A stretch of 64,000 nucleotides of DNA, taken from Octopus vulgaris. Taxonomy: Eukaryota. The DNA is taken from the NCBI GenBank assembly GCA_951406725.2, contig OX597818.1:25730001-25794000 (forward strand), written 5' to 3'. Shown piece after piece: positions 31,261-37,200 of the stretch. Position numbers: made by a program. Each line of letters opens with the position of its first letter. Position 1 is the stretch's first letter.

Positions 31261-34200
31261 GTAATGACAGCAACAAACACAAATGCAGCAATGAGGACAA
31301 AATCAGCAATTACTGGAGAGGAAAATACATACTTTTTTTGAACAATAAAGAAAAGGTTACTTGATATTGGTTGGAAGATTAGAAAAGAACAAACAAACTC
31401 AAAGAGATATTTCCTAACTAGATTTGTTAAGAAAGACATATTTTTTGTGAAGACTGTCACAAAAAATTTTTATTTTTATTTTTGTTGTCAATTCTATCCT
31501 ATAATGACTAGGAAGTTACACTAGAGAAATCAATAAAATCACATTTGATAAAAGTATGTTGGAAGAGAAACTAACAGTAAAAACTGTTTAACAGCAATGT
31601 TTGTTCTATATTGGTAGAAGGAAGTAAGATGAACTAATGCACTGAAAAATCTTCAACAGTAATGGTCAGAAAAATGTCTGTCTCAGGCAAATTACTGAAA
31701 AAAAAAATTGGTAAATAAAAATGAAGAAAACTAATAAAAAAAAATTAGGAAAAGTTTAACAAAAATAAAAATACATAACATATATAAATATCAATATGAA
31801 GAAAAGCTATTTTAAAATCAATGAACTGCAATAAGAAAATAGAAGGATCACAGATATTCTAGGTGAGTTACTAAGTTACTGATAAATTTCTACATTATTT
31901 TATATTTCCATGCTATCTATAAAACGTAGAACATACTTACATTTTAAACAGGATCTTGTGAAGATGTATTGAGCAAATGTGAAAGTAAATGAAAAGTGAC
32001 AACCCAATGGGATCAAATCTACTGGGTCTAATTACCATACAACCTTTCTGTAAACACTCAACCATATTTACCACTTGTATCTAAGTATCAATATCAATAT
32101 AGTCAGACTGAAAATGATTTTAGAATTCTCAAATATGCCTGTTTTTCTATAAGATCAGATTCCAGAGTTGTTGATAATTTACATTAAAGTTTTCAACACA
32201 CACACACATATGTACACAAAAATATACATACATACATACATACATACATACATACATACATACATACATACATACATACATACGTATATACATACATACA
32301 TACATACATACATACATACATACATACATACATACATACATACATCATACATTATATATATACAGGGGTTGAACAAAATAATGGAAACACTTTAAAATTT
32401 CAAACAAATTTATTTTAATATGGGGTAGGACCTCCTTTGGCAATAATTACATCTTGAATTCTATGAGGTATGGATTCGTACAAAGTTTGAATTGTTTCCA
32501 AAGGAATTTTTGTCCATTCTTCAGCTAAAACAGTCTCCAGTTCTTGAAGTGATTATTGTGGAGGATATCAACTCCTTACTTGTTTTTCTACAATGCACCA
32601 TAAATGTTCAATTAAGATCTGGGGACTGTGGTGACCAGATAAGATGTTCAACTTAACCAGAATGTTCCTCATGCCATTCAATAACAACTTCAGCTGTGTG
32701 AATTGGTGCATTATCATCCTGAAAGATTGCATTTCCATCCAGAAACAGGTCCACAACCATAGGATGAAATTGATCAGATAAAATACTAAAATAGTTTTGA
32801 CTATTAATTCTGCCATGAAGGGTAATCATTGGGCTGGCATATTTCCAAGAAATAGCCCCCTCTCCCCAGATTATCACAGATCCTCCTCCATGTTTAACAG
32901 ATGAAAGAAGGCAGACTGGGTCAAATGCTTCTTTTGGCTGTCTCCACATATATACTTGGCTGGTGGCTGGAAATAAGGTAAAGGATGACTCATCCGAGAA
33001 AATAACTTTTTTCCATTGCTCCAGGGACCAATTCTGTAGGTTTTTACTCCACACTCAATGCTTTGCAACATTTATTTTTGAAAGTAGAGGTTTTCTGATT
33101 GCATCCCTCCTGTGAAATCTGTCTTTGTACAGCTCCCGGCAAACAGTTTTTGAGGAAACTGGGTTCTCAAGGTGGTCATTAAGCTCTGTAGTACATTTGG
33201 AAGCTGTACTTTTGTGATCATTTCTAACAATTTGTGTAAGAGACCAACAGTCTCTATCTTAAAATTTTAGTTTTCTTCCAGAGTTTTGTTTCAACAAGGA
33301 TGTTTTCCCTCTTTCTCAAAGGCTGTCATTACTTTCGAGACAGTACTTCTTGATATACCAAACATTTCAGCTGTTTTCGTTACTCTAGCACCTGCCGTAC
33401 GAGCACCAACTATTTGACCCCTTTGAAAGTCCGATAGATCTGTCATTTTAATGAATTTTAATTACCTTTTTCTGATGATATCTGAAAAGAAACAGCAATT
33501 TTAGCAAAACATATTAAGCAACACTAATAATAAATGAAAAAAACATGAAAATAAACAAGCTTTTGACAGTTTTATAGATATTTAAAAATTATGATGCTAG
33601 GTATTTCCATTATTTTGTCCAACGCGTGTATATATATATATATATCACACACACATACGCACACATATATATATATATACTAGCAGTATCGCCCGGCGTT
33701 GCTCGGGTTTGTAAGGGAAATAACTATATAAGGATTTTTAGAGAGTTATAGCAAAAAAATGCATCAAAAATGGAATAAAAAATGATGGTAATTTTTTTTA
33801 AAATCGTTGACTCATCGTAGACATTTTTAGAGAGTTACTTTGGCATTATGTTGTGCTTGAGAAGAAGACCCATAAAGCCAAGTAAAAGCAGGATTGGCAC
33901 AGTGCAAGGCCTTTTCTCACTTCAAAAAAGCTTCAGATGTTGCTTGATTTTTAACACCTCTATTATATGTTGCATATTATGGTTAGTTATAATTGAGAAA
34001 GGCAGTTAATGAAAAGTCCATGGAAAAAAGAAGGGATGTGGCAGCATGAGTGGTAAGCAGGTTCAGTCCCACTGCATGGCACCTTGGGCAAGTGGCTTCT
34101 ACTATAGCCTTGGGCCAACCAAAGCCTTGTGAGTGGAATTGGTAGATAGAAACTGAAAGAAGCCTATCATATATATATATATATATATATATATACAACT

Positions 34201-37200
34201 CACCAACAAACCAATTGCTGTTGTGAAGAACGAGGTAGGTTTGGGCAGATCGGTTCTCAGCAATGTTCATCTGGAGTTCAATCCACATTTGCTTGATGAA
34301 AGAAATGAATATTTGAGCCAATTTCTAGATGCCTTGAAGGACCATGAAGAGAAGCGGAAACACTATTTTGTATATATTTTAACACATTTAAATCTTTCTG
34401 TATAACAAAGTAAGACAAAGACATTGGAATTTAATTCTAAAAACACTTATTTCAGATTCAAAAACTTCATAGGTAAGAAATTCTTTGTTCAATCAATTTA
34501 TCGTTTCTTAATCTGTTAAAACACTTCGAACTCAAATTTACTAATCAGATTTTATGCATATCACAGACTCGTCTTTGCTTTATTTTGATTTAATGATCCT
34601 AGTACAACCCTGTGCAGGTGGCACGTACTGTGCAGGTGGCACATAAAAAGCACCCACTACACTCACGGAGTGGTTAGCGTTAGGAAGGGCATCCAGCTGT
34701 AGAAACACTGCCAGATCAGACTGGAGCCTGGTGCAGCCTTCTGGCTTCCCAGATCCCCGGTTGAACCGTCCAACCCATGCTAGCATGGAGAACAGACGTT
34801 AAACGATGATGATGATATATATATGTCTGTGTGTGTTTGTGTTTGTCCCCTGCCATCACTTGACAACCAAAGCTAGTGTTTTTATGTCCCTGTAACTTAG
34901 CAGTTCGGCAAAAGACTCTGATAGAATAAGAACTAGGATTACAAAGAATAAGTCCTGGGGTCAATTTCTTGGACTAAAACCCTTTAAGGTGGTGCTCTAG
35001 CATGGCTGCAGTTAAATGACTGAAACAAGTACAAGAATATATATATAGGAAGGCTAACTAGGAAGATGGTTTTTGTATGTGGCAGATGCTCGGGAGCATT
35101 AACCTCTGAAAATCTGCAGAAAACAACTTCCGTCACTTTCCAGGGGGAAAAACTAGAAGTAGTTGATAGCTTCCGTTATCTTGGTGACCAAGTCAATAGT
35201 GGGGGTGGGTGTGCTGAAAGTGTAACGGCTAGAGTAAGAATAGCCTGGGCAAAGTTTAGGGAGCTCTTACCTCTGTTGGTGACTAAAGGCCTCTCGCTCA
35301 GAGTAAAAGGCAGACTGTATGATGCATGTGTACGAACAGCCATGCAACATGGCAGTGAAACATGGGCCGTGACTGCTGAGGACATGCGTAAGCTCGCGAG
35401 AAACGAAGCCAGTATGCTCCGTTGGATGTGTAATGTCAGTGTTCATAGTCGACAGAGTGTAAGTACCTTGAGAGAAAAGTTGGACCTAAGAGGAATCAGA
35501 TGTGTGCAAGAGAGACAATTGCGCTGGTATGGTCATGTGGTGAGAATGGATGAAGATAGGTGTGTGAAAAAGTGCCACACCCTGGCAGTTGAGGGGACCT
35601 GTGGAAGAGGTAGACCCAGGAAAACCTGGGTCGAGGTGGTGAAGCACGACCTTCGAACTCTAGGTCTCACCAAGGAAATGACCAGAGACCGAGACCTATG
35701 GAAGTATGCTGTGCGTGAGAAGACCCGGCAAGACCAGTGAGAACAATCAAAATCAAATCATATATCAGAAAGCAGGGGTTAAGTGACCCATCCGTTCGTG
35801 TCCGCTGTCAGTCTCATCTGGCACCCGTGCTGGTGATACGTAAAAAGCACCATTCGCTCGTGGCCGTTTGCCAGCTCTGCCTGGCCCCGTGTCGGTGGCA
35901 CGTAAAAGCACCATCCGTTCGTGTTCGTTGCCAGCCTCGCCTGGCCCCGTGCCGGTGACACGTAAAAGCACCGTCCGTTCGTGGCCGTTTGCCAGCTCTG
36001 TCTGGCCCCGTGTCGGTGGCATGTAAAAGCACCATCCGTTCGTGGCCGTTTGCCAGCTCTGTTTGGCCCCGTGTCGGTGGCACGTAAAAGCACCATCCGT
36101 TCGTGTCCGTTGCCAGCCTCGGCTGGCCCCTGTGCCAGTGACACGTAAAAGCACCGTCCGCTCGTGGCCGTTTGCCAGCTCTGTCTGGCAACCGTGTCGG
36201 TGGCACGTAAAAGCACCATCCGTTCACGTCCATTGCCAGCCTCGGCTGGCCCCCGTGCCGGTGACATGTAAAAGCACCGTCCGTTCGTGGCCGTTTGCCA
36301 GCTCTGTCTGGCCCCGTGTCGGTGGCACGTAAAAGCACCATCCGTTCGTGTCCGTTGCCAGCATCGCCTGGCCCCGTGCTGGTGACACGTAAAAGCACCA
36401 TCCGTTCGTGGCCGTTCGCCAGCTCTGTCTGGCACCTGTGCAGGTGGCACGTAAAAAACACCCACTACACTCGCGGAGTGGTTGGCGTTAGGAAGGGCAT
36501 CCAGCCGTAGAAACACTGCCAGATCTGACGGGGCCTGACGAAGCCTTCCAGCTTCACAGACCCCAGTTGACCCGTCCAACCCATGCTAGCATGGAAAGCG
36601 GACGCTAAACGATGATGATGATGATGATGAATATAAATAGAGTTAGATAAGGCTGGTTTATGGGATTACCTTAGGTTTCACATCCATAAAGTGCCTAGCT
36701 TTATGTTGTATCGTCAAATCCCAGAACCTGTTGGCTTAAGGCCTCTCTAGTGAGTGGCCTCTCTAGAATCTTTTTCAGATTTATGTTTTATTGATGATAA
36801 ATATATATAAAATTTCTGGCAGAGTGGCATGTAGCTTAGTCACTCATAAAGTTAATCAGATTGTCTATGATGGAGTCATACTCAATGAATGGTGTAGCAG
36901 CTTTATAGTAAACTATTAGATGACGCCACTGACAGAAATAATTACAGTGGTATCAAAATGCAGGATGAAAGTTGCAGAAAGGGTCATAGCTCAATTAATT
37001 AAGAAGATGAGATGCAGTTTGGTTTTGTGCCAGGAAGAAGCAACACTGAAGCTATCTTCCTGGTGAAGTATTTAGCCAAAATAAACCTTTCTAGTTGATT
37101 TTTGTTGACACGGAGAAAACCTTTGATTGGTTCCCTTCCTCATTTATCTGGTTGGCAATGCAGAAGCTAAGGATAGATGAGTGGTTGGTGAGAACCATGT

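What the first reader, a model, noticed from the sequence alone, without database searches (positions are those of the whole stretch)
34196..34815. BPL_N-like gene fragment plus 3' UTR fused to an RTE tail and inserted into a SINE
Seen: SINE 5' half-(TA)n-[69 open codons, stop, ~200 bp UTR-like DNA, RTE 3' tail, (GAT)n]-(TA)n-SINE 3' half. There is no poly(A) and no splice acceptor. The peptide resembles the end of the BPL_N (biotin-protein ligase N-terminal) domain. Known: RTE-type LINEs recognise their own 3' tails. Inference: a cellular mRNA was retroposed either because it ends in an RTE tail or by template switching, a poly(A)-independent route for moving gene pieces.
Basis: partly seen in the sequence, partly recalled or inferred. 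Interest (0 to 1): 0.75.

Follow-up and report, generated by a model that had tools for sequence, protein, structure and literature searches.

The report
Gene fragment retrocopy with RTE-like tail
A dead 621-base copy of the last 69 codons and trailing DNA of an octopus BPL_N-domain gene, ending in the tail of an RTE-like jumping element, sits inside an older short repeat, and it is a modest example of a jumping element apparently carrying a piece of a host gene without a poly(A) tail.

Summary
Window 34196-34816 is a 621-bp unit. It has 69 open codons plus a stop, 204 bp found nowhere else in the window, about 195 bp of a LINE 3' tail, and (GAT)4. It lies in the internal (TA)n tract of a short interspersed repeat whose two halves flank it.

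The peptide passes Pfam BPL_N (E 4.2e-10, above the curated cut-off). It matches residues 220-288, through the same stop, of a 288-aa Octopus vulgaris BPL_N-only protein at 66 of 69 positions. Residues 1-219 are absent from the 64-kb window. The unit has no in-frame ATG, no A-run of 6 or more and no AATAAA or ATTAAA.

The host repeat has lost almost all its CpGs and the insert has not, so the insert is younger.

The best reading is one insertion made by the LINE's own machinery, producing a dead-on-arrival pseudogene fragment. Two routes remain open: the parent transcript already carried the tail, or the reverse transcriptase switched templates. Telling them apart needs the parent locus, which no tool here could reach. 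A DNA-level templated repair is not excluded.

Chimeras of cellular RNAs with RTE tails are already described (U6-RTE in Anolis), so this is a new member of a known kind. The "RTE" and "SINE" labels are inferred, not formally tested.

The parts
34011..34168 (+). 5' half of the host short interspersed repeat (SINE-like). It has an internal deletion in its head.
   Evidence: blastn of the region against the window gives 92.9% to 6950-7075, 90.8% to 28405-28535 and 85.7% to 25672-25776. Pairwise alignment shows 0 of 4-5 reference CpGs kept and 10.5-12.8% non-CpG divergence.
34169..34195 (.). (TA)n tract on the 5' side of the insert. It is part of the repeat's own internal microsatellite and a possible target-site duplication.
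   Evidence: Read directly. The intact copy at 28356-28757 has a TA/TG tract at the same place.
34196..34405 (+). The last 69 codons (34196-34402) and the stop codon (34403-34405) of a BPL_N-domain gene. There is no start codon.
   Evidence: ORF list. Pfam BPL_N E 4.2e-10, 39.5 bits. 66 of 69 identical to residues 220-288 of P0001, with the same terminus. The C-terminus is conserved across the family alignment A1. No in-frame ATG.
34406..34609 (+). Unique AT-rich DNA (27% G+C) after the stop, 3'-UTR-like. It has no polyadenylation signal and no A-run.
   Evidence: No other match in the window. No AATAAA or ATTAAA and no A-run of 6 or more. Composition and 3 CpGs. Its identity as the parent gene's UTR is inferred, not shown.
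34610..34645 (+). An 18-nt tandem duplication (34610-34627 and 34628-34645, one mismatch) at the 5' edge of the LINE-derived part.
   Evidence: Read directly. It is absent from the 5 other tail copies aligned.
34610..34804 (+). 3' tail of an RTE-like LINE, in sense orientation and 5'-truncated inside the LINE's 3' UTR.
   Evidence: 87.9% to 36430-36622, 87.9% to 43885-43696 (-), 87.4% to 47957-47764 (-), 83.9% to 30751-30947, and weaker matches to three more copies. Alignments. In the copy at 35049-36629 the same tail follows a LINE ORF end and a 61-bp minisatellite.
34775..34788 (+). Small terminal hairpin of the tail, with a 5-bp stem and a 4-nt loop, about 16 nt before the (GAT)n.
   Evidence: Seen in the fold and kept in 6 of the 8 aligned tails. 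One kept copy (47840 rc) holds the stem through a change on both sides of one pair plus a wobble pair. Of the other two, 62830 rc breaks one stem pair and 45010 has a 4-base gap there. The whole-tail fold is not better than shuffles (z 0.66).
34805..34816 (+). (GAT)4, the LINE's terminal microsatellite and the 3' end of the inserted unit.
   Evidence: All 8 full tail copies in the window end in GAT-type repeats.
34817..34824 (.). (TA)4 on the 3' side of the insert. It is the remainder of the host repeat's microsatellite and a possible target-site duplication.
   Evidence: Read directly.
34825..35045 (+). 3' half of the same host repeat: a TG-rich stretch, then the body.
   Evidence: 78.0% to 7253-7469 and 77.4% to 28526-28751. 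0-1 of 6-8 reference CpGs kept and 14.9-15.5% non-CpG divergence.
35049..36629 (+). Neighbouring, separate 5'-truncated copy of the same LINE family. It has the ORF end, about 11 units of a 61-bp repeat, the tail and (GAT)n. It served as the in-window reference for what the tail belongs to.
   Evidence: Translation P0121. Sequence. P0121 matches the C-termini of proteins of about 1000 aa that carry Exo_endo_phos and RVT_1. Similar AT-rich 11-13-nt flanks at 35036-35048 and 36630-36640.

Best explanation
The 621-bp unit at 34196-34816 is a partial, dead-on-arrival retrocopy made in one event by the reverse-transcription machinery of an RTE-like LINE.

The template, read 3' to 5', was the LINE's own terminal (GAT)n and about 195-nt tail, then about 204 nt of 3'-UTR-like sequence, then the last 69 codons of a standalone BPL_N-domain gene. 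Synthesis was primed at a nick in the (TA)n tract inside an older SINE-like repeat. It stopped, by 5' truncation, at about codon 220.

Shown: the anatomy; the identity of the coding piece; the absence of the rest of the gene; the intact LINE 3' terminus; TA repeats on both flanks; and the greater age of the host repeat.

Inferred: that the intermediate was RNA, and how the gene piece came to be joined to the tail. I lean slightly (about 0.4 against 0.35) to the parent gene's transcript already carrying a sense-oriented RTE tail in, or just beyond, its 3' UTR. The LINE protein would then have recognised it as it does a SINE. The alternative is a template switch from LINE RNA to the mRNA.

The copy has no start codon and no promoter of its own. 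It is most likely functionless. The confidence given (0.75) is for the single LINE-mediated insertion, whichever of the two routes joined the parts.
For: Coding piece. Pfam BPL_N E 4.2e-10, above the cut-off. 66 of 69 identical to residues 220-288 of P0001, ending at the same stop. That C-terminus is conserved in 8 family members from molluscs and a flatworm plus unnamed sequences.

The rest of the gene is absent. tblastn of P0001 against the window finds only residues 220-288. The 6 other hits have E of 3 or more.

Insertion into one repeat copy. A contiguous copy at 28356-28757 shows that the two flanking halves belong together. Both halves have lost their CpGs (0 and 1 CpG left), whereas the coding piece, the UTR-like piece and the tail keep 3, 3 and 6.

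The LINE end is intact. The tail runs to the family's terminal (GAT)n, as in all 8 full tails in the window.

One event rather than two. TA repeats flank the whole unit, and there is none at the inner boundary at 34609/34610.

The LINE uses TA-rich targets. 6 of 8 tails are followed directly by TA or TG/TA microsatellite, 1 by an AT-rich site and 1 by other sequence.

The tail belongs to a LINE. In 6 of 9 tail copies the 500 bp upstream is LINE 3'-UTR repeat or LINE coding sequence. P0121 matches the C-terminal 220 aa or so of long proteins. All 7 of the 7 I scanned carry RVT_1, and 3 of 7 also carry Exo_endo_phos.

Literature. RTE LINEs are present and recently active in octopus and have microsatellite-rich 3' UTRs (PMC9115989 passages; PMC13282606 passages). 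Stringent LINEs mobilise RNAs that carry their tail (PMC3747384 passages). RTE- and L2-type LINEs form chimeras with U6 (PMC4476161 passages).

For tail-in-transcript specifically: there is no A-run at the junction and no polyadenylation signal in the 204 nt.
Against: No parent-locus DNA could be examined. RNA origin (intron loss) and the source of the tail are therefore untested.

The target-site duplication cannot be delimited, because both flanks are simple TA repeats.

The RTE clade assignment rests on architecture, the microsatellite end and the literature, not on a tree.

One of the 4 copies of the repeat's 5' half in the window (25624-25798) has no detectable 3' half. Half-copies therefore exist, and the split-repeat argument is strong but not absolute.

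The two halves differ somewhat in non-CpG divergence (10.5-12.8% against 14.9-15.5%).

The 18-nt duplication at the inner junction is a feature more expected from a polymerase jump. It argues for the template-switch variant against my slight preference.

Only one such chimera is seen. The other 2 tails without LINE sequence upstream are ordinary truncated copies or unresolved.
Confidence: 0.75

Rival explanations
1. Template-switch variant, nested within the retroposition reading. The LINE enzyme began on a LINE RNA, copied about 195 nt of its tail, then jumped to the 3' UTR of a BPL_N mRNA that itself has no RTE tail. It continued to codon 220 before the cDNA was joined to the target.
For: Chimeras of U6 with RTE-like and L2-like LINEs are reported and attributed to template switching. 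The authors state that these stringent clades form only chimeras (PMC4476161, passages). The 18-nt tandem duplication exactly at the 5' edge of the LINE part (34610-34645) is absent from the 5 other aligned tails. It looks like a polymerase slip or jump at that point. The LINE part is 5'-truncated within its 3' UTR, as expected for the donor template.
Against: There is no A-run at the junction. From recall, jumps to polyadenylated RNAs usually start at the 3' end and leave oligo(A). The 204-nt UTR-like piece has no polyadenylation signal, so the jump would have had to land inside the UTR. The duplication could equally be slippage in a repeat-rich LINE 3' UTR, which has 61-bp units.
Confidence: 0.35
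2. DNA-level origin. A double-strand break in the fragile (TA)n tract of the repeat was repaired by copying from the parent locus. There, an RTE tail followed by (TA)n lies just downstream of the gene. The TA tract gave the homology to start, and synthesis ended at random in the last exon.
For: RTE tails in this genome are usually followed by TA-type microsatellite (6 of 8), so a TA end could prime at such a site and give the same 3' boundary. A second copy of the same repeat (6901-7476) also carries an unrelated insertion of about 155-175 bp in the same internal TA tract. That shows the tract is prone to acquiring DNA.
Against: This requires a specific parent-locus arrangement plus a rare ectopic repair event. 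The LINE family, by contrast, has left 9 tail copies in 64 kb and inserts at TA-rich sites. The orientation, the intact LINE terminus and the 5' truncation are the standard signature of target-primed reverse transcription.
Confidence: 0.12
3. Two separate events. The gene fragment reached the TA tract first by some other route. A 5'-truncated RTE tail later inserted independently at its 3' edge.
For: The LINE prefers TA-rich targets, and the fragment's 3' edge would have abutted the TA tract. Tail-only copies occur elsewhere in the window, for example 44897-45087.
Against: An independent tail insertion into the TA tract should have TA repeat, as target duplication, on both of its sides. There is none at 34600-34609. 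It also leaves the arrival of the fragment, without poly(A), unexplained.
Confidence: 0.05
4. It is the genuine terminal exon of the resident BPL_N gene, flanked by chance by two partial repeat copies.
For: The reading frame is intact over 69 codons with only 3 amino-acid differences from P0001. Octopus introns can be long (recall), so upstream exons could lie beyond the 34 kb of upstream sequence in the window. One 5'-half-only repeat copy exists in the window.
Against: There is no AG before the start of homology, which abuts (TA)n. No other part of the protein is encoded in 64 kb. The two repeat halves are in the right order and orientation, with matching CpG decay. The unit ends exactly at a LINE 3' terminus.
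Confidence: 0.02

Closest known systems
Chimeric retrocopies of a cellular RNA joined to a 5'-truncated LINE 3' part: U6-L1 in mammals; U6-L2 and U6-RTE-like (RTEX-2) chimeras in Anolis
   Same: The order is the same: 5' cellular-RNA copy, then 5'-truncated LINE 3' end, then the LINE's terminal repeat. Both parts are in sense orientation and directly joined, with no poly(A) needed for the stringent clades (PMC4476161, passages). Here the LINE terminus is intact and the whole unit has repeat flanks.
   Different: The cellular partner here is a piece of a protein-coding transcript (coding end plus UTR-like DNA), not a small nuclear RNA. It is itself 5'-truncated. The host is a cephalopod. Whether the join arose by template switching is untested.
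SINE-type mobilisation by stringent LINEs through a shared 3' tail (eel UnaL2/UnaSINE1; Bov-tA/Bov-B; many RTE-partnered SINEs)
   Same: An RNA that ends in the LINE's tail is copied by the LINE enzyme in trans. The product ends in the LINE's own microsatellite rather than poly(A) (PMC3747384 passages; PMC6007223 abstract).
   Different: SINEs have an internal Pol III promoter and amplify to families. This unit has a coding-gene fragment as its head and no evident promoter, and only one copy is known. The coding and UTR-like parts have no other match in the window.
L1-type processed pseudogenes
   Same: It is a partial, 5'-truncated copy of the 3' end of a gene at an unrelated site, and probably non-functional.
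   Different: It has no poly(A) tail and no A-rich junction, and it ends in a LINE tail. Stringent LINEs are said to make such copies rarely (PMC4476161 passages; PMC5470649 passages).
LTR-mediated chimeric retrocopies (template switching inside virus-like particles)
   Same: Both are partial gene copies fused to retroelement sequence, with no poly(A) (PMC5131818 passages).
   Different: Those are flanked by LTR sequence on both sides. Here there is a LINE tail on the 3' side only and no LTR.

Membership tests
Pfam BPL_N (PF09825), biotin-protein ligase N-terminal domain | Score above Pfam's gathering cut-off | tested here: met
   39.5 bits against a cut-off of 24.2, E 4.2e-10.
Pfam BPL_N (PF09825), biotin-protein ligase N-terminal domain | A complete domain is encoded | tested here: not met
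   Only profile positions 197-265 of 283 are covered. Residues 1-219 of P0001 have no counterpart in the window. It is a fragment of a member, not a member gene.
LINE-tail chimeric retrocopy | Sense copy of a cellular transcript joined directly to a 5'-truncated LINE 3' part that keeps its own 3' terminus | tested here: met
   Coding piece and tail are both on the + strand, with the junction at 34609/34610. The tail runs to (GAT)4, like 8 of 8 tails.
LINE-tail chimeric retrocopy | Target-site duplication around the whole unit | tested here: inconclusive
   TA repeats lie on both sides (27 nt and 8 nt), but they cannot be told apart from the host repeat's own microsatellite.
LINE-tail chimeric retrocopy | A parent gene elsewhere, and RNA origin shown by intron loss | not testable with these tools
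   A full-length parent-type protein exists in Octopus vulgaris. No eukaryotic genome DNA could be fetched. The transcriptome supplement of PMC9115989 was too large to read.
L1-type processed pseudogene | 3' poly(A) tail | tested here: not met
   No A-run of 6 or more anywhere in 34196-34815.
RTE-clade LINE (source of the tail) | The tail lies at the 3' end of an element that encodes an AP-endonuclease plus reverse transcriptase in one ORF | tested here: met
   The same tail follows the ORF end P0121 in the copy at 35049-36629. P0121 matches the C-termini of long proteins. Of the 7 I scanned, 7 have RVT_1 and 3 have Exo_endo_phos. P0121 itself has no Pfam hit.
RTE-clade LINE (source of the tail) | Placement within the RTE clade on a reverse-transcriptase tree | not tested
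   No named reference RT sequences were available. The clade is inferred from three things: the single-ORF relatives of about 1000 aa, the microsatellite 3' end, and literature saying that RTE is an active octopus LINE clade with microsatellite-rich 3' UTRs.
SINE (host repeat) | Short, interspersed, multi-copy | tested here: met
   There are 4 copies of the 5' half and 3 of the 3' half in 64 kb. The intact length is about 400 bp.
SINE (host repeat) | Head derived from a small RNA gene (tRNA-like, Pol III boxes) | tested here: inconclusive
   ARAGORN gives 0 hits and Rfam gives 0 at gathering score. On the intact copy at the relaxed threshold there is no tRNA match, only a weak, sub-threshold microRNA-family hit. 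Box-like motifs are seen only by eye, against recalled consensus sequences.

The most novel reading that the evidence does not exclude
In octopus genomes, RTE-type LINEs may routinely pick up and move the 3' ends of host transcripts, including coding exons. This would happen because RTE tails are so common in 3' UTRs (or because the enzyme switches templates readily). It would give cephalopods a poly(A)-independent route for scattering exon fragments. This chimera could also be one member of a small amplifying family with a gene-derived head.
Probability: 0.12. Interest if true: 0.65.

Novelty: new member of a known kind. Interest (0 to 1): 0.35.

Why it matters
Genomes dominated by 'stringent' LINEs, which recognise their own 3' tail, are thought to make few gene retrocopies.

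A clean case of a coding-gene fragment carried behind an RTE-like tail, in a cephalopod with very active RTEs and SINEs, shows that such LINEs can move host gene pieces without poly(A). It also gives a concrete search pattern for a genome-wide count: an exon match immediately upstream of a 5'-truncated tail, inside one target duplication.

By itself this copy is a dead fragment with no sign of function.

In five literature searches I found no report of mRNA-RTE chimeras in molluscs. The searched library lacks most subscription journals, so this is not proof of absence.

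Tried and rejected
1. Smaller proteins carrying the same fragment, which would indicate other retrocopies. A search of proteins of 37-121 aa found none. This is weak evidence, because such fragments are rarely annotated.

2. Cluster membership and accessions of P0001. Which octopus species the window comes from, and whether P0001 has near-identical paralogues, stay unchecked.

3. The parent transcript's 3' UTR from the Octopus vulgaris transcriptome supplement of PMC9115989. One 20-nt window string found nothing in the 6.8 M characters held. 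The transcriptome file itself is 87 MB and could not be unpacked. A word search for biotin-ligase terms in the held parts also found nothing. Supplement 1 was an unrelated variant-call file. These supplements may well hold the decisive sequence.

4. The supplement of PMC13282606 was listed but not read.

5. A tRNA-like head for the host repeat. ARAGORN and Rfam found none.

6. A stable overall fold of the tail. It is no better than shuffles (z 0.66). Only the small terminal hairpin is conserved.

7. Pfam on P0121. No hit even at E of 10 or less. The protein atlas gave only 'hypothetical protein' clusters, some with RVT_1 or DUF6451 on a minority of members.

8. Pfam on 84 open frames of 87 aa or more across the window. 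Only transposon-type domains passed the curated cut-offs, and there were no host-gene exons.

9. The long inverted repeat around the region (32442-33599 against 39463-40631). I considered it as a possible transposon boundary and rejected that. One arm encodes Tc1-type transposase pieces, so the arms are two Tc1-like copies in opposite orientation.

10. Not used. The genome-contig collection holds bacteria and archaea only. No eukaryotic genome DNA could therefore be searched for the parent locus or for other exon-tail chimeras.

Full report
**What is there**

The window is AT-rich, full of microsatellites and transposon debris. Its one informative protein match is to Octopus vulgaris, so I treat it as an octopus-type genome. 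I did not try to name the species.

Reading 33600-35400 and comparing the region with the rest of the window gives this layout on the + strand:
- 34011-34168: 5' half of a short interspersed repeat
- 34169-34195: (TA)n
- 34196-34402: 69 open codons, with TAA at 34403-34405
- 34406-34609: 204 bp of 27%-G+C DNA that matches nothing else in the window
- 34610-34804: the 3' tail of a LINE
- 34805-34816: (GAT)4
- 34817-34824: (TA)4
- 34825-35045: 3' half of the same repeat

**The coding piece**

The 69-residue translation scores 39.5 bits on Pfam BPL_N. The E-value is 4.2e-10, the curated cut-off is 24.2, and the match covers profile positions 197-265 of 283.

A search of longer proteins found one hit, P0001. 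It is a 288-aa 'hypothetical predicted protein' of Octopus vulgaris that consists of a BPL_N domain only. The window peptide equals its residues 220-288 at 66 of 69 positions and ends at the same stop. Two of the three differences lie in the first three codons.

P0001 belongs to a widespread family of standalone BPL_N proteins. 175 proteins of 158-504 aa had E of 1e-5 or less, from molluscs, flatworms, chlamydiae and others. In an alignment with 7 of them the C-terminus is conserved. The window therefore carries the true end of such a gene, not an annotation artefact.

tblastn of P0001 against the whole window finds residues 220-288 only. The six other hits have E of 3 or more. The 82-codon open frame has no ATG. 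The homology begins flush against the TA tract, with no AG in front of it.

**The host repeat**

The copy at 28356-28757 carries both halves contiguously, with a TA/TG microsatellite between them. The flanks of the finding are therefore the two halves of one element type, split at its internal microsatellite.

Compared with the two better-preserved copies, the 5' half keeps 0 of 4-5 CpGs and the 3' half keeps 0-1 of 6-8. Non-CpG divergence is 10.5-12.8% for the 5' half and 14.9-15.5% for the 3' half. The flanks now hold 0 and 1 CpG. The coding piece, the UTR-like piece and the tail hold 3, 3 and 6. The numbers are small, but they fit an old repeat that received a younger insert.

There is a caution. 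One of the four 5' halves in the window (25624-25798) has no recognisable 3' half, so half-copies do occur.

I call the element SINE-like from its size and copy number. ARAGORN and Rfam did not find a tRNA-like head.

**The tail**

The window holds 8 full copies of the tail and one partial copy. All 8 full copies end in GAT-type repeats. Six of the 8 are followed at once by TA or TG/TA microsatellite, one by an AT-rich site and one by other sequence.

In 6 of the 9 copies the 500 bp upstream is LINE sequence. The clearest case is the neighbouring copy at 35049-36629. There an open frame ends at 35737 (P0121). It is followed by about 11 units of a 61-bp repeat, then the tail, then (GAT)n, with similar AT-rich flanks at both ends.

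P0121 has no Pfam domain of its own. It does match the extreme C-termini of many proteins; 125 representatives had E of 1e-30 or less. Of the 7 long ones I scanned, all 7 have RVT_1, 3 also have an N-terminal Exo_endo_phos domain, and 4 have a PHD-type finger after the RT.

This is a LINE with an AP-endonuclease and a reverse transcriptase in one ORF of about 1000 aa and a microsatellite 3' end. That fits the RTE clade, which passages in PMC9115989 and PMC13282606 describe as active in octopus and rich in 3'-UTR microsatellites. I made no tree, so 'RTE' remains an inference.

A small hairpin sits about 16 nt before the (GAT)n (34775-34788). It is kept in 6 of the 8 aligned tails, once through a change on both sides of a pair. 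The tail as a whole folds no better than shuffled sequence.

**The inner junction**

LINE homology starts at 34610. The first 36 nt are an 18-nt unit repeated in tandem with one mismatch. None of the 5 other aligned tails has this. There is no A-run at the junction and no AATAAA or ATTAAA in the 204 bp before it. There is also no TA repeat there, although TA repeats flank the unit as a whole.

**How it most likely arose**

An intact LINE 3' terminus, sense orientation of both parts, truncation at the 5' end, an insertion site of the kind this LINE family uses, and repeat flanks around the whole unit together form the signature of target-primed reverse transcription. I take the unit to be one LINE-mediated insertion (confidence about 0.75).

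Two routes could have joined the gene piece to the tail.

- The parent transcript may already contain a sense RTE tail in or just after its 3' UTR, so the LINE protein treated it like a SINE. The window has nine tails in 64 kb, and PMC9115989 reports that 26% of octopus transcripts contain a retroelement fragment. Such transcripts should therefore be common. The lack of oligo(A) and of a polyadenylation signal at the junction fits this route.
- Alternatively, the enzyme started on LINE RNA and switched to the mRNA. This is the mechanism proposed for U6-RTE and U6-L2 chimeras (PMC4476161). The 18-nt duplication at the junction fits this route.

I lean slightly to the first (about 0.4 against 0.35). 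The parent locus would decide.

**Rivals**

- A DNA-level templated repair of a break in the TA tract, primed on the TA repeat that usually follows RTE tails, could give the same structure (about 0.12). A second copy of the same repeat also carries foreign DNA in its TA tract.
- Two independent insertions are disfavoured by the missing TA repeat at the inner junction (about 0.05).
- A genuine terminal exon is very unlikely (about 0.02).

**Comparison with what is known**

The unit works like the known LINE-tail chimeras and like SINE mobilisation by stringent LINEs (PMC3747384; PMC6007223 abstract; PMC4476161). It is not an L1-type processed pseudogene, because it has no poly(A). It is not an LTR-mediated retrocopy, because it has no LTR flanks (PMC5131818).

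Reviews note that LINEs needing a specific 3' sequence make few gene retrocopies (PMC5470649). My five literature searches turned up no mRNA-RTE chimera in molluscs. The library lacks most subscription journals, and I read passages, not whole papers.

Works I only recall and did not see are Kajikawa and Okada 2002 on eel UnaL2, and Buzdin and colleagues on L1 chimeras. Gilbert and Labuda 1999, Suh 2015, and Ohshima and Okada 1994 appear only as citations in the passages I read.

**What stayed open**

No tool here reaches eukaryotic genome DNA. The transcriptome supplement that might hold the parent 3' UTR was too large to read. The following are therefore untested: RNA origin, the source of the tail, the size of the target duplication, the species, and the genome-wide frequency of such chimeras.

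**Verdict**

The object is a single dead gene fragment and a new member of a known kind. Interest is moderate to low (0.35).

Noticed in passing
window 6901-7476: A second copy of the same SINE-like repeat also has foreign DNA in its internal TA tract: about 155-175 bp, AT-rich, with no LINE tail. The tract looks like a hotspot for insertions or repair.
   Followed up: partly
window 32442-33599 and 39463-40631: Inverted repeat arms of about 1.2 kb, 87-96% complementary, bracket the 5.9 kb that contains the finding. One arm encodes HTH_Tnp_Tc3_2 and DDE_3 fragments (39931-40549). The arms are therefore two Tc1-like transposon copies in opposite orientation, not the ends of one element.
   Followed up: partly
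window 35790-36430 and 43848-44414: The LINE's 3' UTR contains a 61-62-bp minisatellite, with about 11 units in one copy. Each unit repeats the first part of the terminal tail.
   Followed up: partly
window 47296-47454 and 47496-47654: A perfect 159-nt inverted repeat (100% complementary) with a 41-nt spacer, next to a TA tract and an RTE tail. It could be a foldback insertion or an assembly artefact.
   Followed up: no
window 48604-49568: A tandem repeat with a period of about 371 bp and three copies. Two 300-nt stretches are 100% identical.
   Followed up: no
window 16762-18723 (+): A 654-codon open frame with RVT_1 and zf-RVT domains. It is a different and seemingly well-preserved LINE, unrelated to the tail in the finding.
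   Followed up: no
window 13506-13790 (-) and 51163-51905 (+): A mariner-type transposase fragment (Transposase_1, E 1.9e-21) and two weak Pif1-helicase 2B-domain fragments that suggest a Helitron remnant.
   Followed up: no
window 60977-61816 (-): A 280-codon open frame with no Pfam match.
   Followed up: no
protein P0002 (Argonauta hians, 363 aa): This relative of P0001 carries a long histidine/proline/glycine-rich repeat insertion just before the segment that corresponds to the window's fragment (alignment A1).
   Followed up: no
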